A stretch of 64,000 bases of DNA from Lama guanicoe. Its lineage: Eukaryota. A program made the translations under genes and the position numbers. The notes under the pieces are model-generated. The model saw nothing but the letters and a program-made list of their open reading frames with translations, searched no databases and had not been told where the DNA came from. Position 1 is the first letter of the stretch, and each line of letters starts with the position of its first letter. Below are positions 1-22,240 of this stretch, one piece after another. The stretch lies in contig MU053802.1 in assembly GCA_013239625.1 (NCBI GenBank), positions 79,363 through 143,362 on the forward strand. The letters are read 5' to 3'.

Positions 1-320
1 CCCTGACCTCACCACGCGCGCTCCCAGGAGCAGGCTGACTTCAAAGGCTTGAGTTCAGTGAACTTGGGGGAGCGGATGCCACCCCCAGGCAAGGCAGGTA
101 GGGACATGGGAGAAAATCCTCTGGCTCTCGAGGGGCACCGTAGTCCCCGGTCGCCGCCGTCGAACCCCTTCCCCAGACCGCACCACGCCTCTAGTTTGTC
201 TGTCTGTCTGACTACCTGCCCTACTGCCTACTGATTGGAGGATGGGAGAGGCTAGTCTGTGTGTCTGTCGTTTTACCTAATGGAGGAGGAGCCGACTAGT
301 ATGTCTCTGTATTTGCCTGC

Positions 321-388
<68 letters not shown>

Positions 389-411
389 GTATCTATCAAT
401 CTATCTATCTA
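321..411. repeat. (CTAT)n tetranucleotide microsatellite
   Basis: About 17 perfect CTAT units from 321, then interrupted units to ~411; seen directly. Confidence 0.97.
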
Positions 412-872
412 GTGGAGGCATAGCAGTAGCCAAGTTTGACTTTTTATTTGTCTGATCCATCCTCTGTCCATTTATCCATCTACCATCCACCCATCCGTCT
501 ACATTTTCAGCTGGCCCAGCAGGCCCCCACCCACCCTCTATCCGTCTCCCCACCCAGCCGTCTGGCAACCTGTTCCTGTGTCCGTCCCGCAATCATCTGT
601 TCCAGCAAGAGCCTGATGCTCTGGGGCAGCCTAGTCCCCGGCCCCCTGCTCCTGAGGTGCCAGTTCCACCACACTACACCCCTAGGGTCATGACCAGGCC
701 GGGGCTCGGGGAACGTATGTCTTCTGGCCAAGAGGCAGGCAGAGCTGTGGTCCCAGGGCCACTGGGCCGGACAGCCCGGACTCCAGGCGCCAGCCCGGCA
801 CTCCGCTCTGAGCTGCGCGGCCGCCCCGAGGGTGGGAACGGCCTGGGCTCGGGGCCCCGCTCACCGCCGCAG

Positions 873-1032
873 AGCCCCGGCCGCCCCGCGGGCTGGCTGT
901 CCTGCCGGCCCCCGCGCACGTCCCCGCGGAGCCGAGGGGCCATGGGAGGTGTCACGTCGCCGTGGTGGGCAAGGGGGCTGACACCAAGCCGCCCCATGAG
1001 GCCAGCCAGATGGACGAGGATGGCATTGAGGG
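873..1032 (+). pseudogene. OTOF: OTOF exon ~12 copy, heavily GC-shifted
   Basis: 160-nt segment between cag and gtgagg. The 3' half reads CHVAVVGKGADTKPPHEASQMDEDGIEG (otoferlin [28 protein letters not shown]); the 5' half keeps its length but is recoded to Pro/Arg/Ala/Gly codons. Confidence 0.85.
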
Positions 1033-1958
1033 GTGAGGCACCCGTCTCCCCGGGCCCCTGGTGATCTGGCCCGGCCCTTCCAGGGGCACAAGGGAGCACC
1101 CGGGGTGGACCTGGCCCAGAAACCGTGCCCTCCCTCTGTCTCTCTCAGCCACACACTCAGACGGCTCAGCTGTCCCTGGAAGGAGCCAGCCCCAGTATCC
1201 ACGGACTCTCCACATGGGACAGAAAGGCCTGAGGCCAGGTGGGCAGGGTTCACAGAGGACAGTCAGGAGTGACAGTCGTTTGACATCCGGACTTCTGTCT
1301 GTGAGAAACTTTGGAAAAAAGGGGCAAATTCCCAGAGCTGCTGGATATTGAGTCTACACCCAGGAGAGCAAAGCCATTTTGTTTTCTGTGCCAATTTTAA
1401 GCAGCTGACAGTGGCTGTTGAGAAGTATTCTAGGACCTTGTCTGAACACAGTGGGAGAAAGTGCTGGGATCCAGTGAGTCATGACTTCGGTGGGCCAGGG
1501 AGGGAGCGTGGTGGCCATGGGTGAGGTTTCTGTGTGGGAGAGAAAAGATGTGATACACAACTAGGAAAGGGGACAGTGTTACCAGGATGGATCTCCCCCT
1601 CTGCAGTTTCACTCCTAGAAGGGAGCCTTAACCTATTTATCATACTCCCGGGAAGGGGCTGTTATTCCCATCTTTCAGGTGAGGAAGCTGAGGCTCAGAG
1701 CACTGGGGAGGTTTGCCCAGGATCCCATGAGAGACCAGGTACTGTCAACTTGAGCATCTTCAGTCCTGGTGTGGTCCTTCTCAGCCGTCCTTCACATGCT
1801 GTCCTGGGCCCCAGGGGTGTGCAGATGCTGAGGCAGGAGTCTGGGCGCCCGGTCTGGCCACCACAGTCCAACTGTATGCGCCGGCAGGGACTTGCTGCTC
1901 CCTGAGGGGGTGCCCCCGAACGCCAGGTCACATATGGTTCTACGTGAAAATTTATTGA

Positions 1959-2108
<150 letters not shown>

Positions 2109-5100
2109 TGAGGTGACAGGCACCAGGGTGCAGAGGGATGGTCAAGGGGTCCAGGGGACAGACATGAGGCAGAATCAGAAGCCACCAGACTGGATTTTGA
2201 TCACCTTGGTGCATTCACCTCTGGAAGTGAGGAGAGATGAGAGGAGCTCCAGCTCAGAGGGGCTGGGGGCCAGGCCAGTCTGGGCCTTAGGGATACCTCC
2301 CTGCCCCTAGGTCACAGAGACCAAGAGCTGAAGGGGGGGACACTGTGAGGCAGGAGGGTCTCAGAGGCTGGTCAAGGGGAAGAGTGAGGAGAGGAGCGTG
2401 CACACACACACACATACACACGTGCACAGCTGCCACAAGCCACACATAACACATATATACCCACTCACCCGCAGATACACGCGCTCACACACAAGCAAAC
2501 TCTCACCCCCTCCCACCAGGGCAGGACCTCAGTGCAGAAGAGCAGCTATGAGCCGCTGTGGAATGAGCAGTGGTCTTTACAGACCTGTCCCCCAACTCTG
2601 CAAGTGCATGAAAGTACAGACCCGGGACTTGGACAAGGTCAACGACATGCCCATAGTTGCCCACTTCACTGACCTGCTCAAGGTTTCCAATGATGGAGAC
2701 AAAGGTGAGTAGCAGGAGGCCGGGGGTGTGGGGGTGGGACTGAAGGGGCGGAGTCAATGAGACTCCCACACAGGCCCCCACCATCCCACGCCTCTGCTGG
2801 AGCGGCAGTGGGCTTGCTCAGGGCTTTGCCAACAGCCTCTGCCTCAGGGGAAGGGTGGAAACTCAGGACTCATCTCTGCACAGAGCTTCCTGGGCCTGTC
2901 TGTGCCAGGCTGCCTGGATTCGAAGCCCAGCTGCTCTGACAGAAGCTGAGGCAGAAGTGGGGCTGCACAGGAGGCACTGAGCCAGACCACCCAGGAGGCC
3001 CCTCCTGCACTGACAGCCGTTGGGGGACGGGGGTGACCAAGACTTTCACCCTGTTTGATGTTCTTCCCACTGGATCCGTGGGAGGAGAAGGAAATCCCAG
3101 CATCAGGGGTCCTTCCCTCCATGGGTCGAGGGCTGGCCAAGGGGTAGGACCTCTCCTTTATGGGCCCCCACCTGCCCACCGCAGGCCCGCACAGCATCCC
3201 CGATGTCTTCATCTGGATGATGAGCGATGACAAGCACATGGCCACAGCCCGGTGCATCCCCAGGACCTGCTCTTCTCCATCGTGGGGGAGGAGCTGGGTG
3301 AGGACCGCGCCAGACCAAGACGCTCTTCCTCAAGGTGCCGGAAGGGAAGTCAGATTAGGGGGTGGAGGGGTCCGTGCTTCGTTCAAGGGGTCAGCCTCCC
3401 TTGGAAGGAGTAGCGTGCCCACCCCGGGTCTGGCTGGTCTGAGCTGATGGGGTGCTTAGAGAAGAGGTGGAGAGAGTAGGAATGGCAGAGGGCCCCATCC
3501 CATCCATACTCCTTGGAGCTCTGCTCCCGAACCCACAGCCCAGTGGGATAGCTGTGGAGGGACAGAGGCCCTCTGACCACGGCCTCCTGCAGCCCCCTGC
3601 GCCTTCCTCACCCCACGGGCTCTGGAAGCTGACCCTGTGTTCACCCCCAGCTGCCTCAGAAGCAGGGATTTGGAGTGGTGGGCTGGACAGTGCAAGCCAG
3701 GCTGGAGCCCTGCCTGTGGCTGGGCCACAGCAGGCAGCGCAGGGACTTCCAGTGGGGCCTGCCCTGTGGCTTCGAGGGGGTCCAGGCAGCCCTGGGTTTG
3801 GGCCTGCACTCCCTCCTGCCCAGCAGCCTGGTCTGCATGAGTGAGTGAGGCAGGTTGCAGCCAGGCCCAGGGAAGCCCCTGGCTCCAGCCCTTACCCTGG
3901 GAGAGCGCTGGGGTCACCTGTTCCCAGCCTCCAGGCCTGTACCCCCTGCAGAGAAGCAGGCCTTCCAGCCCCACGCCCTCAGGTACCAGGCTCGGAGCCT
4001 CTGTGTAGCTGACTGCAGTGGCCTCTCAGGCCCCTCACCTGAGTCTTTTTATCAACCAGAGTCAGTGCACAGAGGTGAGGGCCAGGGGAGGAGGGAGTGG
4101 CACTGGCTTTGCAGGCACTGGGGTAGGCCTGTGAGCTTCTGGGGCCTGGGGAGACAGATCAGCCAGCATCCCAGACCCACAGAGGGAAGCCTGGCATATA
4201 CCTGGGGACCCGGGCCACATGGTGGAGGCTTTAATGTGCTTACATTCTGCATGGAGGACAGGGAAGACCTGGTAGGGGCTGAGGGAACAGGGTCAGGAGC
4301 AGACCTCACATCAACCTTCATTTTAAGATTCCCAGAAGAGTCAGGGGATATGTCCCTCCTGACCCCAAGCCCCCTGGAAACCACAGTGACTGGGGGTGAC
4401 TCCTGCTCGGGTATCTACCCACCCACCACCACTGATTACCCATCCCCCCCGCCCTGAGCTACAGGTGCTGAATGAGACCCTGTGCCCCACCTGGGACCAG
4501 GTGCTGGTGTTCGACACCCTTGAGTGCTATGGGGAAGCTCATGAGTTCATAGACGACCCCCCCATCATTGTCATTGAAATCTATGGCCAGGACACTGGTG
4601 TAGGTGGGCTCTAGCACCAGGGACCATCCCAACATCCCCTCACTACACCCGCACTGGTGGCCCCCTCCCCTGCTCTCCCCTGAGCCCCTCGGCCAGGTGC
4701 TTGCTGGGAAGCTGGAGGGTTGGGCAGCCCCTCCAGGACACCCCAGGTGTCCGCTGGCCTGTCACTGCAGTCTGACTCCTTCCTGATGCTCGGGGACTCT
4801 GGGGCCTCAGGGAGGAAATGGGCCAGGGCTTCCCACCTCCCAGCACAGACAGACCAAACTCAGAATCTTCAAGAGATTTGTCAGCAAGGCCTGCTGTCCC
4901 CAGCCTCCCCCACCCCAGGGACTCCCCAGCCCCTGCCCACACCTACCACAGTCAGCTGCCCAGCTTTCCATGGGAGCGCTGGAGTAGGGGAGTGGGGGAC
5001 TGGGGTGCCCTGAGAGAGCTCTGGGCTAGAGGCAGGTGCACCCATTTCTAGTCTGAGTACTGCATCTGCCATTCACTACCAATCTGGCCTGAGCTAGCCT

Positions 5101-8100
5101 GAGACTTGGTTTCCCCATCTGTAAAATGGGATGATCACCCCTGCAGCTACATGGTGCTGTGGGGGACTGAATGTGATCCAGGATGTCAACATGCTTGGTA
5201 AATTCAAGCACTGCGAGCCTACCCTGGCTGTTTGTCATGTCAGAGCAAAGCTGACTACATGGGCCAGAACTTTGTCAAGCCCGTGGTGAAGCTGGTCAGT
5301 GAGGCATACTGCCCACTCTGCTTCCCGCCCCAGCTCGAGTCCTACCAGATCTACTGGGGCAGGGCCACCGCGGGGGACCTGCTGGCCACCTTCGAGCTCT
5401 GGCAGGTGGGGCTGCAGGGAAGAGGGGACTGATTGGGGGCCAGTCTCCTCCCCATCCTGCTGTGAGGTCCGTTGTGATGGAAGCTGAGGATGTGGTTCTT
5501 GGGAACCCGGGATGTTCAGCTTTCCCTGTATCCCCAGGTCACATATGGCAAATAACTCATCAGGAGAGGGAGCTCTCCCCAGGCTCCCCAGGCTAGGACA
5601 CTATGTCCCCCATTTCCCAGATTGGACCAGCAAGAAAGGCCGACCCACCACCCATCAATTGTCCAGTGGACACGGACTGAGGTCCCATCATGCCTGTGCC
5701 TGTGGGCATCCGGCCCGAGCTCAGAAAGTACCAGATTGAGGGATGTGAGGACTTTGCTGGGCCCCTGCCGTCCCTGCCCACAGCAGGCCCTGCTGTGCTC
5801 TGCTTCCGGGCCCCCTTGCTCTCTCCATATCAAGGGTCTGTGCACATATTACATGGTTGACATCAGACTCCAGCCATCTTTGGCAACCTCAGGCCATGCC
5901 TCATTTTCCAGATAAGGGTGATGAAGGCCAAGGAGGGGAAGTGACTGGCCCCAGGTCACACCCAGGAACTGGCAGCAGACCCAGGCTGCTGCCCACCCAT
6001 TGCCTGCCCCTTTTGCACCATCACACTGCCGCCATCCAGGACCTATCCCAGCCTTCCGTCTGACCCCGACACCCACCCTCACCCTGAAGCCCCTTCAGGA
6101 CACCTGCCCCTCGTCAGCTCTTCCTGCCCGGCCCCCACCCATGCACTGCCCACCCATGGGCCAAGTCCTTCTCAGGTGGCCTGGCACCCACAGCTGGTGC
6201 CCTTGACTGAGGGGCTTTCCTCTTAGCCCACCTCCCACCAACTCACGCAGATGCTGTTCTGGGGCCTGTGGGACCTCAAGCACGTGAACCTGGCCCAGGT
6301 AGACTGGCCACGGTGGACATCGAGTGTGCGGGGAAGGGGGTGCAGTCATCCTTGATCCACAATTACAGGAAGAACCCCAACTTCAGCACCCTCATCAAGT
6401 GGTCTGAAGTGGTACATCTGGGCCCCGGGGTCGCTGGGCAGAGCTGGGTGCAGCCGGGCAACTGGGCAAGGCCGTGTGCCTCTGGCCCTTCTCTGGGCTC
6501 AGACCTTCCGGAGAACGAGCTCCTGCAGCCGCCATCGGACATCAGCGTGGCGGCTGCTGGGCCTTGGCCTCTGCACCCTGGGGGGCTCCCAGCTGTCAGC
6601 TCCCTGCGGTGCTTCCTCTCCCGGCCCCCAGACAGCTGGCCCCCAGGTGGAACAGCTCAGGGACAGCCATGCCCCGAGGCCCATGGATGGGGCTCCAAGG
6701 GTTTCTTCCTTGGGCTCATCCCCTAGTCAGAGTCAGGGAGGCCAGGAGGGATGACCCACCCAGGGGCCAAGGAAGGTTGCCCCGGGGTGCCCCTCACTCT
6801 CAAGCCAGAAAGGTCCAGGGCCAGGCATCCTTAGAGGGACTGAGGGCAGATGGCTTCCTCTGCCAGGTCTTGTAGAAGACCCAGGACCCCTCCCAGCCTC
6901 ACTGTATCACTCACCGCAGCCCACTCTCCTCTCTGGCCACCTCATCCTCTGCCTGTGCCCATCTTTTCTCCCTCAGCTGTCACCTCCCTCCCTCTCCCCT
7001 CAGAAAGCTCCAGAATCAGCTTTAACCTCCGGTCATTTCATCCACCCCTGACTCTCACCATTACTCCTGCTCTTTCCTGTCTGTCTGTCTGTCCATCTCT
7101 CTGTCCAGGCAGACTCCCCCAGGGCTGCCATGTGCTGTACAATGGGGGGGCACTCCTCTCACCCCACAGGGGAGGTCGTGGTGAACATGGAGCCAGAGGT
7201 GCCCGTCAAGAAGCTGGAGACCATGGTGAAGCTGGACAAGGTGAGGTGCCTGGGGTCAGTCCCACGCTGGCTGCGGATGTGCACCTGCATGTGACACTTT
7301 ACCAGAGCCAGGCCAGTCCACCTGTGAGACAATACATTAATGAAGTCACTTCTCCTTCAGCATGTGATGGGACAGGGCCTCCCCTGACTGCACGTGCACA
7401 CAGCCCTGTCCTAGACTGTCCTGGGATGGAGGACTCAATTCTGCGTGTGTGTGTGCATGCATCAGGGGACACATGCCTCAAAATGTGGTGCGCATGTATG
7501 AGAGGCAGGGAGAACAGTGACCATGTGAAGTCATAGCCTGAAATTACTTTTATTCCAACAAACACCATAGTCAATGGATTCCTTGTGTGAACAACAGGGT
7601 TCTTTCCAGAGGGTCCCTGGGTTCCTTCCCAGCCATTCACAAAAGGCCCTCCCCACGCCTGGCTTGGGGACGAATTTCCTGGTGGAAGCTCCTTACTCGT
7701 CCTTTGGGACTAGGGCTGTTTATCTGCCAGAGGGAGACCTGGGGGTTCAGGTGTGGAGGTGGCCTCTGCCGAGGAGGGCAGGATGGAGGCTGGCCTGGAA
7801 CAGGCCATCCTGGGTCCAGACAGTGTGGAGGAAAGGGGTCGGGGCTCCCCCCAGCCCCCCATCACTTGCTCTGTACTCCATTCCTCACATCATGTGCTTC
7901 ATGCAGCCTGGGGTGCCCCCTAGCTTCTGAAGCCTGAGCTGGGTCTGAAAGGATCTTCCCTTACCCCCATCATCCTGGTCCCCAGAGGGTCCCAGCCAGA
8001 GAGTCCCGGCTGAGTTAGTGCGGGCGTGGCTCTGGGGAAAGGGGAGCAGTTGAGGCCCAGGCCTGGCCCACAGGCCCGGGTGGTACGGCCAGGGCTCCGG

Positions 8101-8329
8101 GGCTGCACCCGGAGACTCCACGCCCCCCTCAGCTCCCAGCCTCCTGACCTCCCCCGAGGGTGTCCAGGCCATCAGTGAACAGAGGACGGCACTGGCCCGA
8201 GCTTCCCCATCATCCCACAGGCCCTGGGCTCCTGTGGGGCCGTGTTACCAGGATCCTCTTCAGCTGTGTCACTGAGCGTCCACTTCCCTGTTGAGGCCCT
8301 TGTCCCCCTGTAGCCAACATCACCGAGCG

Positions 8330-8510
8330 CTGGCCACATGCCTTGCCAGCCTCTCCTCCCGACGCGACCTGCACACTGCAGGGATCTCCTGGCTGTGCGC
8401 AGCCATACCGGCGCCCAGCACCCCCATTTAGACTCGGTGGAGCCCTGAAACCGGTCACTTTTGAAAGCCCCCAGTGATTCTAACATGCAGCCAGGGTTGC
8501 TAGCCACCGC
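8330..8510. mobile_element. MER5A-like hAT DNA transposon remnant
   Basis: Ends in ...cccagtgattctaacatgcagccagggttgctagccacc, typical of MER5A; boundaries approximate. Confidence 0.55.
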
Positions 8511-10097
8511 CCTGGAAGGTCTGAGGAAACATCTGCGAGGCAGATCCTTCATGGCCTCAGAATTGGCTGTGTGAGCACAGGCGCTCACAGCGCACAGGGA
8601 GTGGCCCTGTGTCAGCTCCCTTTCCTCCTCCTTCCCTGGCTGGGCCTCTGCCTCCATGTTCAGCCCGGTGGCTAAGGCCTGTCCCTGTCTTCTTGCTTCC
8701 CCCCTGCAGACTTCTGATGCGGTCATCATGGTGGATGTGGTGAGTGTGGGGACCACAGAGGGCTCTGGGGAGAGAAGACCCTACACCATGCAGGGTATCA
8801 GGCCAAGGGGAGCAGCTTCAGGGACTGAGACACCCCCAGCCCCTGGCACTCCGGCCAGCACACCTCCCTGGGAGTGGTAGCTGGAGAGAACTGCTTGGGG
8901 AGCAGGGCCCCCAGCTGCTGGTTCTGCCTCAGCTGGTGGTTCACGCTGGCAGGTCATGACCCTCTGTGGGCCGTGGCATCCATTTCGACAAATCAAGGCC
9001 CTGCCCCTTTGACATTGGTGGCCCCCCAGGGCCTCCTGGAGCCCAGGGCTTCCGGGGAGCAGATGGTCAGAATGAATGGGGGACTCCCAGATGGTCCAGG
9101 GCTCTGGGAATGGCCAGGGTGCAGGGATGTATGCAGGACTCCGGACCTGGCCAGCCCTTCAGGCTGATGAGGACGAGAAGAAGGAGAAGGAGAAGGGCAT
9201 ATCAGAAAAGATGGAGGAGGAGGAGCTGGGTGAGAGCATGCAGGACTGGCGGTCCAAGAGCTTCGCTGCCATCGACACCATGAAGGAGCTGAGGCCTCAG
9301 GCCAGGGTTGGGGCCCGAGGAGGGACTAGGCTGTGAGAGCTGACCATATCTCCCCATCAGACCCTCCAGTCCAGCTTCTTTCCTGCCCCCTTCTCTGTCA
9401 ACATGTGCTTGGAGCAGCCTGTCTCACAGCCTTGAAGTTCTAGCTCAGGACTCACTTTTTCCAGGATGGAGGGCCAGTCCCCCTTCCCTGGCTTGGTTTT
9501 CTCTTGTCTTCATTTATTTTCTGCACAAATATCTCTTGAGTATATATGATCAGACACCAATCTGGGTGCTATGGGAGCCTAAAGAGAAGATGCCGTACCT
9601 GCCCTGGGTATTTCCTGGACATGCAAAATGGACATGTAAGCAGATCCATCGCGGTGCAATAACAAAGACAATTCAGTGCCTGGGGGAGTCAGGGGAGGCT
9701 TCACAGAGGAGGTGACCTTTGAGGAAGAAGAGAAATATGCACTCAGAGGCCAAAAGCGAACAACTTCTCAGTAGCACTTGCACATCTATTTCTATCTAAC
9801 ACCTCATGCTACTTTATTTTACACACCTCGGTCACTGTTGCTGTGAAATGTTCTTCCCTATCGTGTGCACGTGGGTTCTGTCTGCTGAGCCAGATGGCAG
9901 TTTCCAGAAAAAGCAATTCTCCTCGTCCTCATTTGTCCCTTCTCCACACTGCTGACCGAGCTCAAGGCACCCCCTGACTGACCGGCTGACCAGGAGGGAT
10001 GTGTGCCTGTGGTGGTGTTTCCTCAGCTGAGCTGATCCAGCCGCACTCTCCCCCCAGGCCCTTTCTGGGTCCCAAGTTGGGTGTGCTGCTTACCATC

Positions 10098-10500
10098 CAT
10101 GTTAGTCAGAGCACAGGCTAAGCTGCTGTAGTAAGTTAGACTGGTGTGAGCAAGGAGAAGGTGGTGTGGTGATTCCATGGTGTCAGGGAGCAATACCCTG
10201 GCATCTTGTTACTGGCATCTGTGTGGCTAGAGATGGCTTGCCGTCACATCCCAACACCAGTGCGCAGGAATTGTCAAGACAAGAGGAGGCTTCTCTTTTC
10301 CCTTTAAATGCCCAACCGAGAAGCTGCAAATACCACTTTCACTCATGTTGGCTGGAATCTAGACCCATAGTCACACTTGGCTGCGAGGGAGGCTGGGAGA
10401 TGCCATCTTAGCTTTGCGGCTGTGTGTCCAGAAACATGTTTGAAGAGCAGGAGAGCTGATAACTGGGGGACACCTAGTAGTATCTTCTCCCGCCATCACT
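10098..10500. mobile_element. Old MLT1-type (ERVL-MaLR) LTR remnant
   Basis: Starts tgttagtcagagcacaggctaagctgctgta and contains tagtcaca...ctgcgagggaggctgggagatg, both MLT1-like; recognised from memory. Confidence 0.5.
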
Positions 10501-10650
10501 TCCTGGATTCAAGTTGGCCAGGCAGGAGCTCCATCCAAGAGGCAGCCTTGTGTCTACTCCTGTCATCTGCACAGGCTACCACCAGGTGGCGGTGGCACCT
10601 TGGTTGAAACCTGGTGATTTAGTGTCCAGTGTGTACTGACTGAAGCACAT

Positions 10651-11811
10651 TTTCTTTTTTTTTTAATGGAAGTATAGTCAGTTTAAATGTACAATTTATA
10701 ATGTGCAATGTAATAGTTCAGGCATACATATATATACACATTTGTTTTCATATTCTTTTTCATTATAGGTTACTAGAAAATGCTGAATATAGTTTCTTCT
10801 GCTATACAGAATAAACTTGTTTATCTATTTTATATATAGTAGTTGGTATCTGCAAATCTTGAACTCCCAATTTATCCCTTCCCACCCTCTCCCCTCTTGG
10901 TACCCATCAGTTTGTTTTCTATTTCAGTGAGTCTGTTTCTGTTTTGTAAGTGAGTTCATGTGTCTTTTTTTAGATTCCACATGTAAGTCACATCATGTGG
11001 TATTTTTCTTTCTGTTTCTGGCTTACATCACACAGAATGGAAATCTCCAGGTCCAACCATGTTGCTTCAAGTGGCATTATTGTATTATTATTTATGGCTG
11101 AGTAGTATTCCATTGTATAAATAGACCACAACTTTTTCATTCAGTCATCTGTTAATGGACATTAAGGCTGCTTCCATGTCTTGGCTATTGTAAATAGTGC
11201 TGCTGTGAACGTTGGGGTGTGCATATCTTTTTGAATTAGAGTTCTCTCCAGATCTCTGCCCAGGAGGGGGATTGCTGGATCATATGGTAAATCTATTTGT
11301 AGTTCTTTGAGGAATCTCCATGCTGTTTTCCACAGTGGCTGCACTAAACTACTTTCCCGTCAACAGTGTAGGAAGGTTCCCTTTTCTCCATACCTTCTCC
11401 AGCATTTATCATTTGTGGACTTTTTGAGGATGGCCATTCTGATACCAGGTGTGCGGTGATACCTCATTGTAGTTTGGATTTGCATTTCTCTGATAATTAG
11501 CAATATTGAGCATTTTACATGCCCCTATTGGCCTTTGTACGTCTTCATTGGAGAATTGCTTGTGTAGGTCTTCTGCCCATTTTTGGATTGCATTGTTTGT
11601 TTTCTTCTTATTAAGTTGTATGAGGTGTGTATATATTCTGGAAACTAAGCTCCTGCCAGTCTCATCTTTTGCAAATATTTTCTCCCATCCCGTAGGTTGT
11701 CTTTTTGTTTTGTTTATGGTTTCCTTTGTTCTGCAAATCTTATAAATGTGATCAGGTTCCATTTGTTTATTTTTGCTTGTATTTTTATCGCTTGGGTAGA
11801 TGGCCTGAGGA
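10651..11811 (-). mobile_element. 5'-truncated LINE-1 (ORF2 C-terminus, 3' UTR, poly(A))
   Basis: Poly-T at ~10651-10664. Minus-strand ORFs give [28 protein letters not shown] and KETINKTKRQPTGWEKIFA, which are L1 ORF2p C-terminal motifs. Confidence 0.95.
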
Positions 11812-12278
11812 TTTGACTTGGAGGAGAAGGAGGAGATGGGCAACACTGAGGGTGAGCCCTGGAGCCCTGCGGGGTGGGTAGCCCCCCTGCCTGTCACATC
11901 CCGGTTGTTTCTCTTTCCCCTTCTCGTGGGCCTCTAAAGCTGCAGCAGCCAATAGCAGATATCAGGCATCCCTGGCCACCAGGAAGCAGGCTGAGGCCCT
12001 TATCTACAGTGGCTTTTACTCTGATCAATTCAGCAGAGTGATGGACAGACACTTAGAGCCACAGAGCATCAGAGCTGGATGAGACCTCAGAGCTCATTTC
12101 ATTCAGTATTTCTAGACATGTTCCATGGAACACTGTGAATGGGTATTCTGAAGGAAGTTCTTGGGTCAAATGGGTTAAACAGATCCTTGGGTACAGGACT
12201 TCTCAGTGCCTTTAGTATACAAATGCTATTCTGAACCTCTAGAAGGCACAGAATAAATTATTTCACCAACTTATTATC

Positions 12279-12304
12279 TGTGTGTGTGTGTGTGTGTGTG
12301 TGTG
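12279..12304. repeat. (TG)n microsatellite
   Basis: About 13 TG units. Confidence 0.9.
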
Positions 12305-14305
12305 AATTCTTCTAAAGCATTCCAAGAACTCCTACGCCTGGTGTTCCACTTAATGCTGTTTAGAAAACACTAGTATAGAACAATCCTCTTAATGTTAAAG
12401 ACAGGTAGACTGAGGCCAGAGACAAGAGCAAGCTGGCACCAGAGCCAAGCTTCTTTCTTGCCCCTGTCAGTCAAAGGGCACACAGCAGTCTTTGCACATT
12501 CCCCGCATCCTGGGTCCCGGCCCCGTGGGAGGCAGGCATGCCAGGCAGCATTGTCTGCATGTTCCAGATGAGCACACAGAGACCTGCAAAGTTAACCTAA
12601 CAAAGTGCCAGATCTGGGTCTCCAACCTGGCCTTCCTGCTCAGATCATCTCCACCTCTTTGTCTGTTTCTGGCCAGGCCTGAAGAGGCCAATGAAGGGCA
12701 AGGAGAAGGCAAGGGCTGCAAAGGAGGAAAAGAAGAGAAGCCAGAGCCTGGGCCCCGGTCAGTCGTCTGATGCCCCCGAGAAGAAGAGACCCAAGATTGA
12801 TAAGCTCAAGGTGAGGGTCTGGAAACAAATGCTGTCAGAGTGTGGGGGTCACACCTGGGGTACCAGGTGGCAGATGGGGCAAGACAGAGGCCCATGGACT
12901 GTTCTTGCCCCCTGAAAGCCAGGCCCAGCTCAGGTGTTTCCCAAGGAGCTGGAGTCAGATTTGGACAACTTCAAGGACTGGCTGTACACTTTCAACCTGC
13001 TGCGGGGCAAGACAGGGGATGATGGAGATGACCTGATGGAGGAGGAGCACATCGTGGGCCAGTTCAAGAACAGGCAGGGAATGTGGTCCCAGCCCCTGAG
13101 CCCCAGGCCCTGAGTCCTGAGCCCCCTAGTTCTTCTCCCCACCCCAGGCCCAGGGCTGACAGCCAGGTGGAACCATCAGTTGTCCTGCTTGATAAAATAT
13201 GAAAATACTTCCATGCTGATTGACAAAGAGCATCTGCCCTGAACCCAGCTCCCCACCCCTCCTCTCGTAGAGTTGCCTCCATGGCCACTCCTTCCAGAAA
13301 ACCTGACTCCCTGTGATCCAGCAACTAAAGGGTTAAGGCCCCACCACAGCAGGGTGCAGACCCTCAGTGCTCTTGGCTGTTTTGAGTGCCAGCCCTGCCT
13401 ATGCCCGTGGGAACCTGCACCCTGACCCACGCTTGCCTCACCCCAGGGCTCCCTCTGCATGAACAAAATGCCCCTCCCAGAGGATGTGTCTTGGGAAGCC
13501 AGCTACAACCCTACCTATGGCATGTCACAGGGCATCCCCAGCAATGACCCCATCAACATGCTGCTCCATTGCTCTGAGTCTATGTGGCTTGGGTGAGAGT
13601 CCCCTCTCATCCCCTCCCTCCAGCCCCAGTCCTCCCACCCAGGAGGGACTGAAGCAGCTGCAAACTGATATCCTCCAACTGGGAGGCACCAGGGAGGTCA
13701 GATAGTCTGGTTCCCATCATTTATAGGGGACGAAACCAAGGCCCAGGGAGAGTCGGCATCTTGCCTAGGGTTACACGAGCCTCTGGTCCTGTTCTCCTGC
13801 CCTTCACCATCACGGAACCATCAAGGAGAGGGCAGGGGCACTGGGAGATGAGGAGGGTGTGGGGAGCCTACTCAGGACCACCCCTCCATCCCAGGCCACA
13901 GACCTGCACCCTGCAGACATCAATGGCAAGGCCAACCCCTACATCACCATCCAGCTGGGCAAGACTGACGCCTGTGAGAACTCCATCTCCAAGCAGCTCA
14001 AGCCTGTCTTTGGGAAGTAAGGCCTCTTGGTTCTCCACCGCCACCCCAGCCTGACCTCCTCAGCCCAGAATACCTCCCACCCCACCCTGACCCTCAGCCT
14101 TTCTCCCAACCCCTTACCACTAGGGCCTTTGACATCGAGGCCTCCTTCCCCATGGAATCCATGCTGACGGTGGCCATGGATGACTGCGATATGCAGGCAC
14201 TGACAACCGCATCGGGGAAACCAAGACTGACCTGGAGAAGGGCTTCTACAGCGAGCACCGCGCCGCCCGCACCTGCTGCACCTGAACTCTATAAATGAGA
14301 TTCAG

Positions 14306-14603
14306 GCCGTTTGTTCTCGGGATAGGAACAGGCACCTCTCCGGGCGCCAAGCGGTCATCCGCTTCCCCTGCCTTCCCGCAGGCCCTGACCCCGCGAGCCC
14401 CAAGTAAGGGACTGGGGCCTTAACTCGGCTGCAGGCACGCGCCCGGGGCGCGTCCACGCCCAAACCCCCAGCCCACGGGGGCGGCGGGCGGCGGGCAGCA
14501 GGCGAGCAGGGAACAGGGGCGCGGGGCGGGGTGGGAGGAGGAAGGGCGGGGGCTGCCGGAAGCTGAGGCCGGTCTGGTAGTCAGTGCTGCGCCCTCGGCC
14601 GAC
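14306..14603 (+). promoter_or_regulatory. CpG-rich CASP6-derived 5' leader with promoter-type motifs
   Basis: GC box GGGGCGGGG at 14523-14531, a second GGGCGGGG at ~14544-14551, ETS-type CCGGAAG at 14556-14562 and many surviving CpGs. Activity is untested. Confidence 0.5.
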
Positions 14604-17024
14604 ATGAGTTCAGCGCTGGAGTTCCGAGGGACTGGCTGTGCAGGTGAAGAACACAACGTGACAGAAACAGATGCCTTCCCTAGGAGAGAAATGTTTGATC
14701 CAGCAGAAAGGTACATAATGGACCACAAGAGGAGAGGAGTTGCTTTAATCTTCAAGCATGAGAGGTCCTTCTGGCACCTGACGCTGCCGGACTGGCGGGG
14801 AACCAGCGCGGACAGAGACAATCTTCAGCGCAGGTTTTCAGATCTAGGATTTGAAGTGAAACGCTTTAATGATCTTAAAGCAGAAGAACTACTGCTCAAA
14901 ATTCATGAGGCATCAACCTCTAGCCATGTAGATGCCAATTGCTTTTTGTGTGTTTTCCTGAGTCACGGTGAAGGCAACCCCATTTAAGCATATGATGCCA
15001 AAATTGAAATTCAGACACTGACTGGCTTGATCAAAGGAGACAGGTGTCAGAGCCTGGTTGGAAAACCCAAGACATTTATCATTCAGGCGTGTCGGGGAAA
15101 CCAGCACTATGTGCCCGTCATTCCTTTGGATGTCGTGGATCGTCAGACAGATGTGCTGGATGCCAACATAACCCAGGTGGACGCCGCCTCGGCGTGCGCA
15201 CTGCGTGCCAGAGCGGACTTCCTCATGTGCTACTCGGTGGCAGAAGGTTGTTATTCTCATCGGGAAACGGTGAACGGCTCATGGTACATTCAAGATTTGT
15301 GTGAGATGCTGGGAAAATCTGGCTCCTCCTTAGAGTTCACAGAACTCCTCACACTGGTGAATAGGAAAGTTTCTCAGCGCCAAGTAGACATTTGTAAAGA
15401 CCCAAATGCAATTGGAAAGAAGCAGGTCCCCTGCTTTGCCTCACTGCTAACTAAGAAGCTGCATTTCTTTCCAAAATCTAAATGATAGGTGCTATTTTGT
15501 TCTATGTATCTGTATTTAAAATAGATTTTCCCTTCTTTTTATAAAAAGAAGTATCCCTAGGTTGAAGTTTATGGTATAGCAATATAAAATGTTTTAAGCT
15601 TTAATGACAGAACTTCAAAAAAGCAGTTCATATTGGAACATGGTGAAGGGGTTTGATATGTAGTAATGAAATACTCAGGGAATTCCTGTAAGTTAAAAAT
15701 GCATTAGCATTTCTAATACTTGAGTTTTAGAGTAAATTGCAAGGTTACTCATAATATCTGGCTGATTTAACTTTTATTTTCTGACTTTTTTACATGAAAC
15801 TTTTTAATCTTTTTAAGGGTTTTTGAATCCTAAGAGTCAGTTTTCCTTTAATATTTGAAATTCATGTTTTATTAAATTTTTCTAATTCACATTCTTATTT
15901 GCATAATTTATAGATGACTTGTATTACTTGGTCATGTAAATCTACATATGAGTTACCACTTTTTGTATAGGACTTGAACACTCACATTTTAAAAAATGAG
16001 CCTTCAAGAACAGTTCATTTTTTTCAAAGTGAACATTACAGTCTTGTACAAAAAGTGATATTTCGTGCATAGATATGGCATTCTGAGAAGGAAATAGAAA
16101 ACATAAAACATAGTGACTTCTTAGTAGAGGCTACACACTTGCAGAGTTTGATTTTGTCAGTACCTTCTGTGTTAAGTTGCTATACACTGTCCAGCAGTCC
16201 CACATGCGGACTGTTATGTTAATGGAATAACAGATATTACTTTTAAGATTCAATTCTTACTAATATGATATATAAAATTTGAGTAGTATGTTAATAACCT
16301 ACCGGAGGCTGAAGATGGTTACGTTTGGGCTCTGATAGCAAATGTGAGGGTTGCTAGCTCAGAAGCAGCAGTTTGCTTATGTCATTTCAGTTGCAGTTCA
16401 AAACATGTGCCAACTCTATGTTAAGGTCAGTGGGACATTTATACCTCTTTTTGTGTCATAACAGGGACTTCACGTCAGTTGAACATTTTAGCTGTCCTTT
16501 AAGCCCCTACTCACAGGCGTTGCCATCTCCATGGTTCTACCTACAAGAGCAAATGACTACAGATGATTTCAAGTGACAATTTATAATAATCTAAGCTATA
16601 TTTAATGATAAAAATTTTCAACTATGAATTTAGAAAGTAATGGCAAGATGATTCTAAATGAAGCCTAAGAATCAATGTGAAGCCAGGCACACCGACAGTT
16701 TCACTTCCGCATGGGAGTGAACGAACACAGGACACTGATGAGGAATCTTAACTCACATGCTGAACTGCAGCAGCAGATGCTTTGATTTTGTTGGACGCAT
16801 CCAAGCTCCTTCCAGCAGCAACTTCAACGAGCCATGAAAATCCACAAACCAAAAATCTCATATGAGGATATTAAAGAATACCTGTGCTTTGCAAGCATTT
16901 TTTTTTACTAACAAAAGTGACTGAAATAGTCAAATTCAAATGAACTACAGGACTCAGAAAGTTCCAGTTTCTAAGCAGCAAATGAACACAATGCAAAAAT
17001 TCACTGACATTTAAAAATGTAAAA

Positions 17025-17098
17025 TTATTTCTTTTCATTGAGTTCCTCTACTGGCATCTGCAAATAGAGTGGCCCACCCATCTCAGGGCTTCAGTAGC
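17025..17098 (-). pseudogene. MCUB: MCUB (CCDC109B) last coding exon, in antisense inside the CASP6 retrocopy 3' UTR
   Basis: Minus strand reads ttttcttcctgtggacag|GCT ACT GAA..., giving ATEALRWVGH-(4-nt loss)-YLQMPVEELNEKK*. This matches the recalled human MCUB end AKESLKQARHSLCLQMQVEELNEKN*. MCUB is the tail-to-tail neighbour of CASP6. Confidence 0.85.
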
Positions 17099-20000
17099 CT
17101 GTCCACAGGAAGAAAACGAGGCAGTGATCAGAAAGGACTGCAAGCCAATGAGCATTAGTGGTCATGAGGAACTCTATACCTTCAATGTCTCCTTAGGTCA
17201 ATACATAGATCTAAACTATGAGTGGCAACTGCCTACTATTAATATTACAATTTATGTGAATCCTTTTGTAAAACATGAGTTCAAGCTTTCTACTACATCC
17301 CTAGAGTTCTTGTTATGTTAGTTTTCACCTTTACAGTGGTTTTCCCAGTTCATATTAAAAAACAAAAACAAAAACCTCAAAAATAAATAATAATAATAAT
17401 AGTAATAATAATAACAATAATAAAAAACAAGATTCAGACCATATGGTTTGGGAAGGGAGACCTATTATGATTCCTGTCCCAGCCAGGCCTCCACCCCTAC
17501 AGGCTTTGGGCTCAGCCTTCAGGGGCCAGGACAGCAGATTCCAAGACAAAGAGAGAGCCAGGGGATTCCAGGACAGAGAAGGCAAGATGAGAGAAAAGGG
17601 GGCTGAGAAGAGGGGCAGCACTGTGTGCTTGGGAGCATCCAAAGGGGATCAGTCTGGCCTGTGGGCTGTGTGACCCTGGTCAAGCCCCTTAAACACTGTG
17701 ATGATCAGTTTCCTCAGGGAGTCTTTGACACTGTGGAGGAGTGGACACAGTAGGGGAATGATGCAGGCCGCACTGGGGGAGACTGGATGCTTGTCCTTGG
17801 AACACTGAGCACGTGGGGTCAGAGCCCCGGGCAGGAAGCCCTAGTGTCTCAGCCAATCCTGGAACACAGGGCAGGACTCACTGACACGCAGCAACAGCCA
17901 GCCCAAGAGAACTGGCCGGGACCATTTCCCCCAGCAAGCCCGTGTGTCTCCTCCCACAGACATGGCTGCAATATTTAGCGGGACCCCATGAAGCCCAGCC
18001 AGTTCCTGACCCGTCTCTGCAAGGAGGGCAAAGTGGACGGCCCCCACTTCAGCTCCCCTGGGAGAGTGAAGGTGTCCAACCATGTCTTCATGGGACCCTC
18101 CGAGATCGAGGACGACAACGGTAACAGGATGCCAGACGCAGCCGAGGGGATGTCAGAGGCTGAGAAGGGGCCCACAGTTCCCTGTGGTGGGACAGCCCCC
18201 CTGATCATCACCCTAGCATCCTCCTTCTGTCCCCTCAGCCACTGCCCTTCCACCCCACCCCACACAGCCTTGCCCACTTGTAGCCTTTTCTCTCCCTCTC
18301 AGCATCCCTGTGGGGTATGGAGGTTCTCCCCATTCTGCAGGTGAGAAAACCAAGACCCAAAGGGTTTCAAGACTTGCCCAAGGTCACACAGCTCTTTGGA
18401 GGCAGCATGAGGGTGTGGGCCTGGGTTGCTGTGGCTTTCCCTATCCCTGCACCCATGTAGCACTTTCCAGAAAACCAGCAGGTGTCTCTTCCGGGAAACC
18501 ACCACCTTCAAGGTGCTGGGACAGGATGTGGGGTCTTCCCCCTCTGACCTCAGAACTCAGAAGGATTCTCTGGTCAAGTTCCCCAGGCAGAGGAAACCAA
18601 GGACACAGACCTCTCTGGGCCTGTGTGGCAGCTGGACCAGCTTGGACCAGCCATGTCTCCCTCTGTGCCTCAGTTTCCCCCACAATCACCTGGAGGTGGG
18701 GCCTTTTTGCCCCTGCATCCCTGGCCCAGCACAGGTGTCTTGTTCTGCTGAGCCTCTGTGTACAGCTGACCCACTGGTACCCACAGGTCAGAGGAAGCCC
18801 ATGGAGGAGAACGTGGCGCTGTTGGCCCTGAGGCACTGGAAAGACATCCCAGGTGTGAGCTGCCACCTGGTGCCTGAACATGTGGAGACGCAACCCCGGC
18901 TCAACCCTAACAACCAGGGCATCGAGCAGGTGACTGGCCTGGCCAAGCGCTGAGGTTCTCCAGCATTTGGGATCAGGGAGTCCCAACCTGGGTCCATAAG
19001 AACAGGTCCTCATGCTGTTCACTGCATTCCCCAAAGCTGGCGGGCACCCCACACACGCACATCACGGCACTTCCTGGCTCACGTCTTAAGTCTGAGTGAG
19101 AATTCTGTCAGCTACGGTGGACACCTGGGGTTGCAATGGCTATTGGGGACGTCATAGGAATGGCTGGCATCCAAGGACAAAAACTGATGTAACGGGTCCT
19201 GATGGGACAAAGGTTGGGAGGAAGAGGGTACCTGGCCTTGCCGGGCAGAGGGAGGAGTCTGTGAGAAGACCTGCCACAACCTCCTTCCTCAGGGCCACCT
19301 GGAGTTGTGGGAGGACTTGTTTACCACAGATGTGCTGGCTCCTGGGACAACTCCGGACATCTCCCCATGGAAGCCTGAGGAGTGAGCTGCTCGGACCCAG
19401 CACCCCTTCCTCCCTGCTCCGCCTGGTGTCCCTTCTGCAGGAGGCTGCAGGCCCAGGTCACTGAGTCAGTCCCATGTAGCCTTGTAGGAGGGAACAGAGC
19501 AACTCATCAAGAAGGCTATGGGGCCCAGCCAAGGTGACTCCCCTTTGCTGGGACAGGAGCCACACCCGCACTGTGCAGTTAGTGAGGGTGATGAGGACTT
19601 TCACCCTCACAGACCCACCCCTCCCAGCGCACGCGCACGCGCACACACCCACAAGACGCAGAAGCCCTGAGAGTCTTCTCTGCCCCCTGATCATCCCCAC
19701 TCCGGGCTGTCGTGCAGCTCTGCCAAGTTTTATTGAAAGCACCTGCTGATGAGATGTGCAGGGTGAGTGCCCAGAGGAGCGGGGTGGGTCGGAGAGCAGA
19801 AAGAGCTCTGGGTCAGGAGCCGAGCCACCTGTCTTTCCTGGTTGACACTGGCCAGGTCAGTGTGCCTCCCTGGTCCTCAGTTTTCCCATCTGTCAAATGG
19901 CAGGATCAAGTCACTGCCAGCACTGGCCTGGGTACCTGGAATCAGGGCCAACTGCGCAGACCCATGAAGTTGCTCAGGACCCCACACTTATTTCAAGATG

Positions 20001-21559: not shown

Positions 21560-21976
<417 letters not shown>

Positions 21977-22240
21977 TGAACCAGACCAGGGGCAACCAGT
22001 GCAGGGAAGCAGCACCTCCCACTGGGAGGGCCCCACTCAGCTGAGTTCAATGCCTTCCCTAGTTTTTGCCACAGGCAAGCAGCTGCCGTGGTGGACCTGG
22101 GGCCCCAGGCAGACTTGATGGCTGGGGAGGGGCCAGGAATTCTGTCCTCCTCTGAGGGTCAGCCCGCAACTTGGCCGCACCCCAGCCCTCATCCTCTGGG
22201 TCCTTTCTCTGTGCTCCCTCTGTTCCTCCTGCTGCTCCAG

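What the first reader, a model, noticed from the sequence alone, without database searches (positions are those of the whole stretch)
770..1032. OTOF exon ~12 rewritten towards G/C, creating a small CpG island
Seen: the exon keeps 160 nt, both splice sites and an open frame, but its first 25 codons read PRPPRGLAVLPAPAHVPAEPRGHGR where otoferlin has [25 protein letters not shown] (recalled). Most differences are A/T to G/C (CAC>CCC, CAG>CGG, AAG>GGG, TCT>CCG, CTG>CCG, AAG>AGG). CpGs are dense from ~770 to 970, and the effect fades in the 3' half. Neutral pseudogene decay normally loses CpG. Inference: footprint of a strong GC-biased gene conversion hotspot, possibly yielding a new promoter-like island.
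Basis: partly seen in the sequence, partly recalled or inferred. Interest (0 to 1): 0.8.

Follow-up and report, generated by a model that had tools for sequence, protein, structure and literature searches.

The report
Extinct GC-conversion hotspot in OTOF pseudogene
One exon of a dead, duplicated copy of the hearing gene OTOF was flooded with A/T-to-G/C changes long ago, most likely by GC-biased gene conversion, leaving a small CpG-rich patch that is now decaying: a clear example of a known process.

Summary
Window 873-1032 is a 160-nt exon with AG/GT intact, inside an intron-containing partial duplicate of OTOF (window 455-25860). The intact parent lies on another contig. Against the parent exon there are 34 W>S, 8 S>W and 5 other differences, with 25 W>S in the first 80 nt. 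The 100-bp window at 865-964 has 27 W>S. The mean over 22 kb of alignment is 5.3 (SD 2.9) and the next best window has 13.

In 815-965, 33 of 52 parental A/T sites became G/C, against 11.9% elsewhere. S>W is not raised, and the implied equilibrium GC is 0.93. The parent peptide is 52/52 identical to otoferlin of many mammals, so the exon changes lie on the pseudogene lineage.

New here: all four assembled copies of this exon share the rewriting, so it predates amplification of the pseudogene family (at least 5 copies). Since then the tract has evolved the other way, with 45 S>W against 6 W>S distinct changes. Its CpGs are lost at the same rate as background CpGs.

The best reading is an extinct gBGC hotspot that left a methylated "BGC island". 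A living promoter island is not supported. This is a known kind of event, but an unusually intense and well-dated example.

The parts
455..25860 (+). Partial, intron-containing (unprocessed) duplicate of OTOF. It is colinear with the parent gene on G000:C2832 at 81-87% identity, introns included.
   Evidence: BLASTN blocks 455-2942, 2948-11811, 11802-14267 and 17423-25860. tblastn with otoferlin P0061 gives window matches of 40-87% identity, several with stops, while the parent gives 40 matches with no stop inside an exon.
873..1032 (+). The rewritten exon: 160 nt, encoding the counterpart of otoferlin residues ~349-402. AG and GT splice sites are kept.
   Evidence: The parent peptide is 52/52 identical to PDB otoferlin 9qe2_A and 100% identical to otoferlins of many mammalian orders.
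815..965 (.). Core of the W>S substitution cluster, spanning the 3' end of the intron and the 5' half of the exon.
   Evidence: 33 of 52 parental W sites became S, against 1083 of 9110 elsewhere (OR 12.9, p = 3e-18). S>W is 7 of 99 against 986 of 12062 (p = 0.85). Implied GC* is 0.93 against 0.60. On the stem of the copy family there are 35 W>S, 3 S>W and 8 other.
455..1200 (.). Wider shoulder of W>S excess around the core.
   Evidence: Stem counts W>S:S>W are 22:5 (455-700), 15:5 (701-814) and 9:2 (966-1040).
671..1080 (.). CpG-island-like stretch: 200-bp windows with GC >= 0.5 and CpG o/e >= 0.6. Of the 29 CpGs in 770-1032, 22 are absent from the parent.
   Evidence: The parent meets the criteria in only 2 windows at this place.
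1888..2075 (+). The next OTOF exon, disabled. It is 188 nt against 187 in the parent (frame shift), has an in-frame TGA at 1956-1958 where the parent has CGA, and its donor GT has become GG at 2076-2077.
2942..2948 (.). Deletion junction. About 4.09 kb of the parent (parent_rc 16004-20094) is missing, including the exons for otoferlin residues ~527-841.
   Evidence: Copy C1025 keeps this segment.
14267..17423 (+). Insertion absent from the parent. It holds an intronless caspase-6-like retrocopy, with ORFs 14424-14987 and 14988-15485 in one frame separated by one stop.
   Evidence: One search matches caspase-6 at E = 1e-93.
1..454 (.). End of a tandem repeat with a period of ~1.8 kb, which abuts and truncates this pseudogene copy. 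It includes (CTAT)n at 321-411.
   Evidence: units about 83% alike, reaching to window -3683. (41 matches in the genome, several in arrays)..

Best explanation
The exon belongs to an old, dead, intron-containing duplicate of OTOF.

**What happened.** The duplication came first. Before the pseudogene was amplified into a family, a recombination hotspot sat on about 150 bp at the intron/exon junction (815-965), with shoulders across about 455-1200. Repeated heteroduplex repair in favour of G/C (GC-biased gene conversion) gave A/T>G/C mutations a transmission advantage. They were therefore fixed at about two thirds of all A/T sites, regardless of codon position or transition/transversion class, while G/C>A/T changes were not accelerated. 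As a by-product the stretch crossed CpG-island thresholds.

**What followed.** The hotspot then died. In the descendant copies the tract relaxes back through S>W changes and methylation-type CpG loss. It is a relic 'BGC island', not a working promoter island.

**Shown:**
- homology with the parent;
- direction of change in the exon;
- W>S specificity and the size of the excess;
- timing relative to the split of the copies;
- the present decay.

**Inferred:** that the cause was meiotic recombination with biased repair.
For: 1. **Cluster.** 27 W>S in 100 bp, against a mean of 5.3 (SD 2.9) and a next best of 13 over 212 non-overlapping windows.
2. **Specific to W>S.** 33/52 W sites changed against 11.9% elsewhere (p = 3e-18). 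S>W is 7/99 against 8.2% elsewhere (p = 0.85). GC* is 0.93 against 0.60. That is close to the equilibrium GC3 of 94% reported for 'punctual' exon-scale gBGC episodes in rodents (PMC12290510, passages read).
3. **Direction.** The parent peptide is 52/52 identical to PDB otoferlin and 100% identical to otoferlins from many mammalian orders. Of the 34 exon W>S differences, 27 are at codon positions 1-2 (11, 16 and 7 at positions 1, 2 and 3). These are therefore derived in the pseudogene.
4. **No mutational signature.** W>S transitions:transversions are 25:8 in the tract against 808:275 in the background. Changes fall on both strands (T>C 16, A>G 9, A>C 5, T>G 3). Sixteen of 33 do not create a CpG.
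5. **Homologous sequence, not a patch.** 39/45 parental S sites are identical, the exon length is unchanged, and a genome search with 600-1300 found only OTOF-family hits (5 of 5).
6. **Timing.** All 4 assembled copies of the exon (the window, C1025, C47427, C37156) share the rewriting. Stem counts in 815-965 are 35 W>S to 3 S>W. Terminal branches show 22 S>W to 3 W>S.
7. **Context.** In copy C1025 a ~9-kb domain upstream also shows a 2-3:1 W>S excess, with a second peak. The window copy abuts a 1.8-kb-period tandem repeat. Patches of near-identity between copies show that gene conversion is active in this family.
Against: - **No direct recombination evidence.** There is no DSB map, LD map or crossover data.
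- **Intron half not polarised.** No outgroup DNA was available, so differences at 815-872 could in part be S>W losses in the parent. Ten of the 33 W>S differences are TpG/CpA>CpG transitions, the class most exposed to that error.
- **GC-conservative changes are also raised.** They are 9/151 in the tract against 403/21172 elsewhere. This hints at some general mutagenicity or multiple hits.
- **The implied intensity is very high.** About 1.0 W>S substitution per W site accrued on a stem that a clock-like reading puts near 0.03 substitutions per site. That is roughly 30-fold acceleration, which is my inference.
- **Crude ancestral states.** Ancestral copy states came from majority-rule parsimony on 4 copies. 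Two of these (C1025, C37156) are sisters, so their shared changes are counted twice.
- **Short contigs.** Two of the copies are contigs of 612 and 301 bp whose status, paralogue or haplotype, is not established.
Confidence: 0.78

Rival explanations
1. The same biased-repair mechanism acted through non-allelic (ectopic) gene conversion among the pseudogene copies. On this view it was concerted evolution, not an allelic hotspot on the single ancestral copy. W>S alleles arising in any copy were spread preferentially to the others, so the shared state reflects homogenisation after amplification and not inheritance from a common stem.
For: The family has at least 5 copies. Window and C1025 show short patches of near-identity (1805-2104 with 3 mismatches in 300; 4205-4354 with 2 in 150) within a background of 5-9% divergence, as ectopic conversion would produce.
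Against: The tract itself is not homogenised. Window against C1025 gives p = 0.073-0.094 across 755-1054, equal to or above background. Terminal-branch changes in the tract are S>W-biased (22:3), so any biased spreading must have stopped long ago.
Confidence: 0.1
2. A local W>S-biased mutational process, not a fixation bias. One example is aberrant base-excision repair of the kind proposed for CpG islands. Another is error-prone repair synthesis at a fragile or recombination-prone site.
For: GC-conservative changes are also about 3-fold raised in the tract (9/151 against 403/21172). A paper proposing TDG-initiated aberrant repair as a source of mutational bias in CpG islands exists (PMC4041421; seen only as title and abstract start in the listing).
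Against: The W>S spectrum matches the background in transition:transversion ratio (25:8 against 808:275) and affects both strands and both CpG-creating and other contexts (17 against 16). S>W is not raised at all. The process was confined to one period and reversed afterwards, although the GC-rich sequence that such a mechanism would act on persisted.
Confidence: 0.07
3. Positive selection built a new GC/CpG-rich regulatory element (a promoter-like island) out of the dead exon.
For: The stretch meets the 200-bp CpG-island criteria.
Against: After the episode, CpGs in the tract are lost at the background CpG rate (0.098 against 0.129, p = 0.21). That is 6 times faster than other G/C transitions. 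Inferred GC falls from 0.794 to 0.748-0.771 in every copy. Neither sign points to constraint or to germline hypomethylation.
Confidence: 0.03
4. The 5' half of the exon is foreign: an inserted or ectopically converted patch from an unrelated GC-rich sequence. Alternatively, it is an assembly or sequencing artefact of a GC-rich region.
For: Assemblies often break or err in GC-rich DNA. Two of the copies are very short contigs.
Against: 39/45 parental G/C sites are conserved against 10/35 A/T sites (p = 1e-9 against unrelated sequence). There is no indel in the exon. The genome search returns only OTOF-family hits. Four separate contigs carry the same rewriting with their own private differences. 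Seventeen DNA runs under six organism labels hold at least half of the sampled 31-mers of 455-4455, although this was not checked for the tract itself.
Confidence: 0.02

Closest known systems
Episodic, exon-scale gBGC hotspots ('punctual gBGC episodes', biased clustered substitutions, phastBias tracts)
   Same: It is a short tract of clustered W>S substitutions on one branch that ignores coding constraint and then stops. Equilibrium GC is about 0.93 here, against 94% GC3 reported for punctual episodes in Murinae (PMC12290510). The sub-kb tract size lies within the range of predicted human gBGC tracts, whose medians are 276-1008 bp depending on the setting (PMC3744432, Table 2). W>S bias decays with distance, as described for accelerated human exons (PMC2631073).
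   Different: It lies in a pseudogene, so selection does not oppose it and no compensatory phase is expected. It is far more saturated, with 63% of A/T sites replaced in 150 bp. It is dated by a later amplification into several copies, which record the decay independently.
Fxy (Mid1) in Mus musculus after translocation into the pseudoautosomal region
   Same: A wholesale W>S rewrite of part of a coding sequence. The Fxy case has 28 replacement substitutions, all W>S, in the part exposed to very high recombination (as summarised in PMC2631073). Here 27 W>S differences sit at codon positions 1-2 of one exon, and 20 of the first 25 residues are changed.
   Different: Fxy is a functional gene, and the cause (PAR recombination) is known and ongoing. 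Here the gene copy is dead, the tract is about 150 bp and not several exons, the chromosomal setting is unknown, and the episode is over.
'Biased gene conversion islands', a class of CpG-island-like sequences (Cohen, Kenigsberg and Tanay 2011, as summarised in the review PMC8286816)
   Same: It is a CGI-like sequence whose CpG richness comes from BGC and not from hypomethylation, with rapid CpG deamination. [quoted passage not shown] Here the CpG transition rate is 0.098 per lineage-site against 0.129 in the background and 0.016 for non-CpG G/C.
   Different: Methylation was not measured here and is inferred from the decay rate only. The original paper was not read; only the review's summary was. 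This island is no longer being replenished.
Unprocessed (segmental-duplication) pseudogenes
   Same: Introns are retained and colinear with the parent. There are multiple disabling lesions. The parent is intact elsewhere in the genome.
   Different: Nothing unusual as a pseudogene, apart from the amplification to at least 5 copies and the juxtaposition to a 1.8-kb tandem repeat.

Membership tests
gBGC tract / extinct recombination-hotspot footprint | Local cluster of substitutions well above the regional rate | tested here: met
   Divergence is 0.33-0.36 against a mean of 0.12 (SD 0.044). It is the extreme of 2111 sliding windows.
gBGC tract / extinct recombination-hotspot footprint | Excess specific to W>S, with S>W not accelerated | tested here: met
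   W>S is 33/52 against 1083/9110 (p = 3e-18). S>W is 7/99 against 986/12062 (p = 0.85).
gBGC tract / extinct recombination-hotspot footprint | Changes polarised to the affected lineage by an outgroup | tested here: inconclusive
   Met for the exon at the protein level. The parent is 52/52 identical to otoferlin of other mammals, which polarises the 27 W>S at codon positions 1-2. Not testable for the intron part or for synonymous sites, because no outgroup DNA was available.
gBGC tract / extinct recombination-hotspot footprint | Indifference to site class (codon position, transition/transversion, strand), as expected of a fixation bias | tested here: met
   W>S at codon positions 1, 2 and 3 is 11, 16 and 7. 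Transitions:transversions are 25:8 against 808:275 in the background.
gBGC tract / extinct recombination-hotspot footprint | Coincidence with a meiotic recombination hotspot, past or present | not testable with these tools
   No recombination, DSB or polymorphism data were available. Only indirect context exists.
CpG island by sequence criteria (Gardiner-Garden and Frommer: >= 200 bp, GC >= 0.5, o/e >= 0.6; criteria recalled) | Thresholds met over at least 200 bp | tested here: met
   200-bp windows starting at 671-881 all pass. Over 770-1032, GC is 0.768 and o/e 0.75. The stricter recalled criteria (>= 500 bp, o/e >= 0.65) are not met: 600-1200 has o/e 0.52.
Functional (germline-hypomethylated, promoter-type) CpG island | CpGs protected from methylation-driven decay | tested here: not met
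   CpG transitions are 27/276 lineage-sites in the tract against 116/903 in the background (p = 0.21). Non-CpG G/C transitions are 9/553 (p = 2e-7).
Functional (germline-hypomethylated, promoter-type) CpG island | Transcription start or open chromatin at the island | not testable with these tools
No CAGE or ATAC data are held.
Unprocessed duplicated pseudogene of OTOF | Introns retained and colinear with an intact parent, plus disabling lesions | tested here: met
   Colinear blocks at 81-87% identity. The parent exons are open. The lesions are a stop, a frame shift and a lost donor in exon 1888-2075, a 4.09-kb deletion of exons and a retrocopy insertion.

The most novel reading that the evidence does not exclude
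The tract records an exceptionally intense and short-lived hotspot. About one W>S substitution per A/T site accrued on a branch of roughly 0.03 substitutions per site. This may have been a self-reinforcing, CpG-island-type (PRDM9-independent) hotspot. On that reading it was born inside a pseudogene in a repeat-rich, perhaps subtelomeric, region and was switched off when the locus was amplified and methylated. The four or more dated descendant copies would then be a natural replicate time series for the birth, death and decay of a BGC island.
Probability: 0.15. Interest if true: 0.55.

Novelty: new member of a known kind. Interest (0 to 1): 0.35.

Why it matters
This is a clean, almost saturated example of what GC-biased gene conversion can do when selection does not resist. 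It replaced two thirds of the A/T sites in 150 bp and made a CpG-island-like sequence out of a coding exon.

The later amplification supplies several independent descendants, and these show the tract decaying once the drive stopped. The locus could therefore serve as a worked example for calibrating gBGC strength, hotspot lifetime and the decay rate of 'BGC islands'.

It is also a warning for annotation pipelines. A CpG island called from sequence alone, and an open reading frame in GC-rich DNA, need not be functional. The finding does not challenge current understanding.

Tried and rejected
- **Whole genome as a file.** I used own-genome searches and fetched stretches instead.
- **RNA and transcription-start evidence.** The look-up of sequencing runs listed three RNA or possibly-RNA runs holding 5-6% of the sampled words. 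That is about what a 9%-diverged paralogue would leave. These small shares are therefore no evidence either way, and expression remains untested.
- **Earlier notes of this scan.** The look-up found nothing near this place.
- **Unrelated insert or ectopic donor.** Rejected.
- **Tandem repeat or minisatellite in the tract.** None was found in 455-1400 apart from a weak 9-bp repeat of two copies at 508-526.
- **Open frame as a sign of constraint.** Rejected, because all three frames are open and the chance probability is about 0.47.
- **Recent homogenisation of the tract between copies.** Rejected.
- **ADAR-type or APOBEC-type editing.** Considered and rejected from the spectrum. The changes fall on both strands, mix transitions and transversions, and run W>S and not C>T.
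- **Human PRDM9 motif.** Not searched, because it would be meaningless in another species.
- **Exon number (~12).** Could not be verified.

Full report
**What the window holds.** The window is G000:C1709:79363-143362 of a 2.05-Gb, 55,231-contig assembly. Window 455-25860 aligns colinearly, introns included, with a region of contig C2832 on the minus strand (about 8.10-8.127 Mb) at 81-87% identity.

A tblastn with a 1998-aa otoferlin (P0061, taken) shows which locus is the functional gene.
- The C2832 locus gave 40 matches of mostly 90-100% identity. None has a stop inside an exon, and the single flagged stop lies in a match that runs into an intron. This is the intact parent OTOF.
- The window copy gives 40-87% identity, with stops in several matches.

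The window copy carries several disabling lesions.
- The exon at 1888-2075 is 188 nt against 187 in the parent. It has TGA where the parent has CGA (1956-1958), and its donor GT has become GG.
- About 4.09 kb of the parent is deleted at 2942|2948, including the exons for residues ~527-841.
- A 3.2-kb insertion at 14267-17423 holds a caspase-6 retrocopy.

The finding's premise is therefore right: this is an unprocessed OTOF pseudogene.

**The observation.** The exon is 873-1032, 160 nt in both the copy and the parent, with AG and GT splice sites kept.
- Against the parent there are 47 differences: 34 W>S, 8 S>W and 5 S<>S.
- The first 80 nt carry 25 W>S, 4 S>W and 2 other. The last 80 nt carry 9, 4 and 3.
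- Only 5 of the first 25 residues are kept, against 17 of the last 27.
- Exon GC is 0.75 against 0.588 in the parent.
- Over 770-1032 the CpG count is 29 against 14, and o/e is 0.75 against 0.50.
- Of those 29 CpGs, 22 are new.
- The stretch 671-1080 passes the 200-bp CpG-island criteria. The parent passes in only two windows at this place.

The open frame is uninformative, because all three frames are open over 873-981 and the chance probability is about 0.47.

**Is it more than chance?** I scanned about 22 kb of window-parent alignment in 100-bp windows, 2111 overlapping and 212 non-overlapping. The windows at 845-964 are the extreme, with 27 W>S. The mean is 5.3 (SD 2.9) and the next best non-overlapping window has 13. 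Local divergence is 0.33-0.36 against 0.12.

Within 815-965, 33 of 52 parental A/T sites are G/C in the copy, against 1083 of 9110 outside 455-1200 (odds ratio 12.9, p = 3e-18). G/C>A/T is 7 of 99 against 986 of 12062 (p = 0.85). The implied equilibrium GC is 0.93 against 0.60. Over the whole alignment the two directions are nearly balanced, at 1170 against 1026.

**Direction of change.** The parent exon's 52 residues are identical to PDB otoferlin 9qe2_A. The dysferlin paralogue also keeps much of the motif. The same 52 residues are 100% identical to otoferlins of many mammalian orders (906 hits at E <= 1e-5, of which the best 120 are listed).

Of the 34 exon W>S differences, 27 are at codon positions 1 or 2. 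Those changes therefore lie on the pseudogene lineage. For the intron part (815-872) and for synonymous sites I had no outgroup DNA, so direction there is assumed and not shown.

**Not an insert, not an artefact.** In the first 80 nt, 39 of 45 parental G/C sites are unchanged, but only 10 of 35 A/T sites are (p = 1e-9 against unrelated sequence of the same composition). A genome search with 600-1300 returned only OTOF-family places, 5 of 5. Four contigs carry the rewritten exon, each with private differences.

**New: timing.** The genome holds a family of these pseudogenes. The contigs involved are the window, C1025, C2730, C3882, C5250, C2211 and C7680, plus many short contigs. Copies differ from each other by 5.4-7.2% and from the parent by 12-13%.

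Only four assembled pieces cover this exon: the window, C1025, C47427 (612 bp) and C37156 (301 bp). All four share the rewriting. I inferred each column's ancestral copy state by majority rule, using the parent to break ties.

| Region | Branch | W>S | S>W | Other |
|---|---|---|---|---|
| 815-965 | stem | 35 | 3 | 8 |
| 815-965 | four terminal lineages together | 3 | 22 | 4 |
| 455-700 | stem | 22 | 5 | 5 |
| 701-814 | stem | 15 | 5 | 4 |
| 966-1040 | stem | 9 | 2 | 2 |

In 700-1040 the terminal changes number 65 rows: 30 CpG transitions, 21 other S>W, 8 W>S and 6 other. Eight of these rows are changes shared by two copies. C1025 and C37156 are evidently sisters. By my count from that listing, the distinct changes are 26, 19, 6 and 6, which gives 45 S>W against 6 W>S. 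The contrast with the stem is significant (p = 4e-15). Inferred ancestral GC of 770-1032 is 0.794, and the four copies now have 0.748-0.771. The drive towards G/C was therefore confined to the period before amplification and has since reversed.

**Is the island alive?** I compared the tract with a 4-kb control alignment of four copies (window 5000-9000), using the same method.

| Class of change | Region | Count | Rate per lineage-site |
|---|---|---|---|
| CpG transitions | tract | 27 of 276 | 0.098 |
| CpG transitions | control | 116 of 903 | 0.129 |
| Non-CpG G/C transitions | tract | 9 of 553 | 0.016 |

The two CpG rates do not differ (p = 0.21). The tract's CpG rate is far above its non-CpG rate (p = 2e-7). 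The tract's CpGs therefore decay as ordinary, presumably methylated, CpGs do. This argues against a germline-hypomethylated, promoter-type island. RNA evidence could not be obtained.

**Mechanism.** The W>S changes fall on both strands (T>C 16, A>G 9, A>C 5, T>G 3 in 815-965). Their transition:transversion ratio matches the background (25:8 against 808:275). Sixteen of 33 create no CpG. The spectrum is ordinary, and only the rate of fixation towards G/C is extraordinary. S>W is untouched. That is the expected signature of GC-biased gene conversion at a recombination hotspot. It is not the signature of editing, APOBEC-type damage or general hypermutability.

GC-conservative changes are about 3-fold raised (9/151 against 403/21172). 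This is compatible with some recombination-associated mutagenesis or with multiple hits, and it is noted as a point against a pure fixation-bias reading.

A rough, clock-based inference puts the stem near 0.03 substitutions per site, while the tract gained about 1.0 W>S per A/T site. That is acceleration of the order of 30-fold. This number is an inference, not a measurement.

**Context.** Several observations fit a recombination-active, repeat-rich setting, but they do not prove a hotspot.
- In copy C1025, which extends 8.6 kb further upstream than the window copy, a ~9-kb domain shows a 2-3:1 W>S excess relative to the parent. It has a second peak of 40:9 in 300 bp.
- The window copy is truncated at ~455 by a tandem repeat with a ~1.8-kb period, which has at least 41 matches genome-wide.
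- Window and C1025 share patches of near-identity (1805-2104, 2255-2404, 4205-4354) amid 5-9% divergence, which suggests recent ectopic conversion.

**Comparison with what is known.**
- The pattern matches episodic exon-scale gBGC. Passages of PMC12290510 describe punctual episodes with equilibrium GC3 of 94%.
- Passages of PMC2631073 describe W>S clusters confined to single exons and decaying with distance. They also summarise the Fxy case, with 28 replacement changes, all W>S.
- The size lies within the range of predicted human gBGC tracts (PMC3744432, Table 2).
- As a CpG-island-like sequence with rapid CpG loss, it matches the 'biased gene conversion islands' class of Cohen et al. 2011. 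I know this class only from the summary in the review PMC8286816; the original paper was not read.

The locus is thus a new, unusually saturated and well-dated member of a known kind.

**Limits.**
- No outgroup DNA was available.
- The ancestor was inferred by parsimony from four copies that are not fully independent.
- Two of the copies are very short contigs of uncertain status.
- There are no recombination, methylation or expression data.
- The exon number is not verified.

Noticed in passing
window 1-454 and upstream (L016; window -3683 to 454): A tandem repeat with a period of ~1.8 kb (units about 83% alike) runs up to the exact point where OTOF homology begins. The first 310 bases have 41 matches in the genome, several in arrays on other contigs. 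(CTAT)n lies at 321-411.
   Followed up: partly
window 14267-17423: An insertion absent from the parent OTOF intron. It holds an intronless caspase-6-like reading frame (14424-14987 and 14988-15485, same frame, split by one stop), which is a processed pseudogene. Its 5' part is one of only four CpG-island-like stretches in the 64-kb window.
   Followed up: partly
window 2942-2948: A window-specific ~4.09-kb deletion relative to the parent removes the exons for otoferlin residues ~527-841. Copy C1025 still has the segment.
   Followed up: partly
window 1805-2104, 2255-2404, 4205-4354 (against C1025): Patches with 0-2% difference between two pseudogene copies that otherwise differ by 5-9%. This looks like recent non-allelic gene conversion between copies.
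   Followed up: partly
C1025 (L009/L010), c1025_rc 2200-10500, peak 7001-7300: Upstream of the part present in the window, this copy shows a ~9-kb domain with a 2-3:1 W>S excess relative to the parent. A second local peak has 40 W>S to 9 S>W with divergence 0.20.
   Followed up: no
window 10001-10400, 22001-22400, 23201-23600; 12801-13200: Other 400-bp bins with skewed window-parent differences. W>S:S>W is 31:6, 27:10 and 33:11 in the first three, and the reverse (11:35) at 12801-13200. None comes close to the exon tract.
   Followed up: no
genome-wide (contigs C2730, C3882, C5250, C2211, C7680, C1025 and many contigs under 1 kb): The OTOF pseudogene is amplified to at least 5 copies, with 5-7% mutual divergence. 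Several copies break into contigs at the same places, for example at the (CA)n near window 2401-2421, so true copy number and arrangement are unresolved.
   Followed up: partly
window 26000-64000: A sharp drop from about 58-64% GC to about 27-41% GC just beyond the end of the OTOF homology. The contents of this part were not examined.
   Followed up: no
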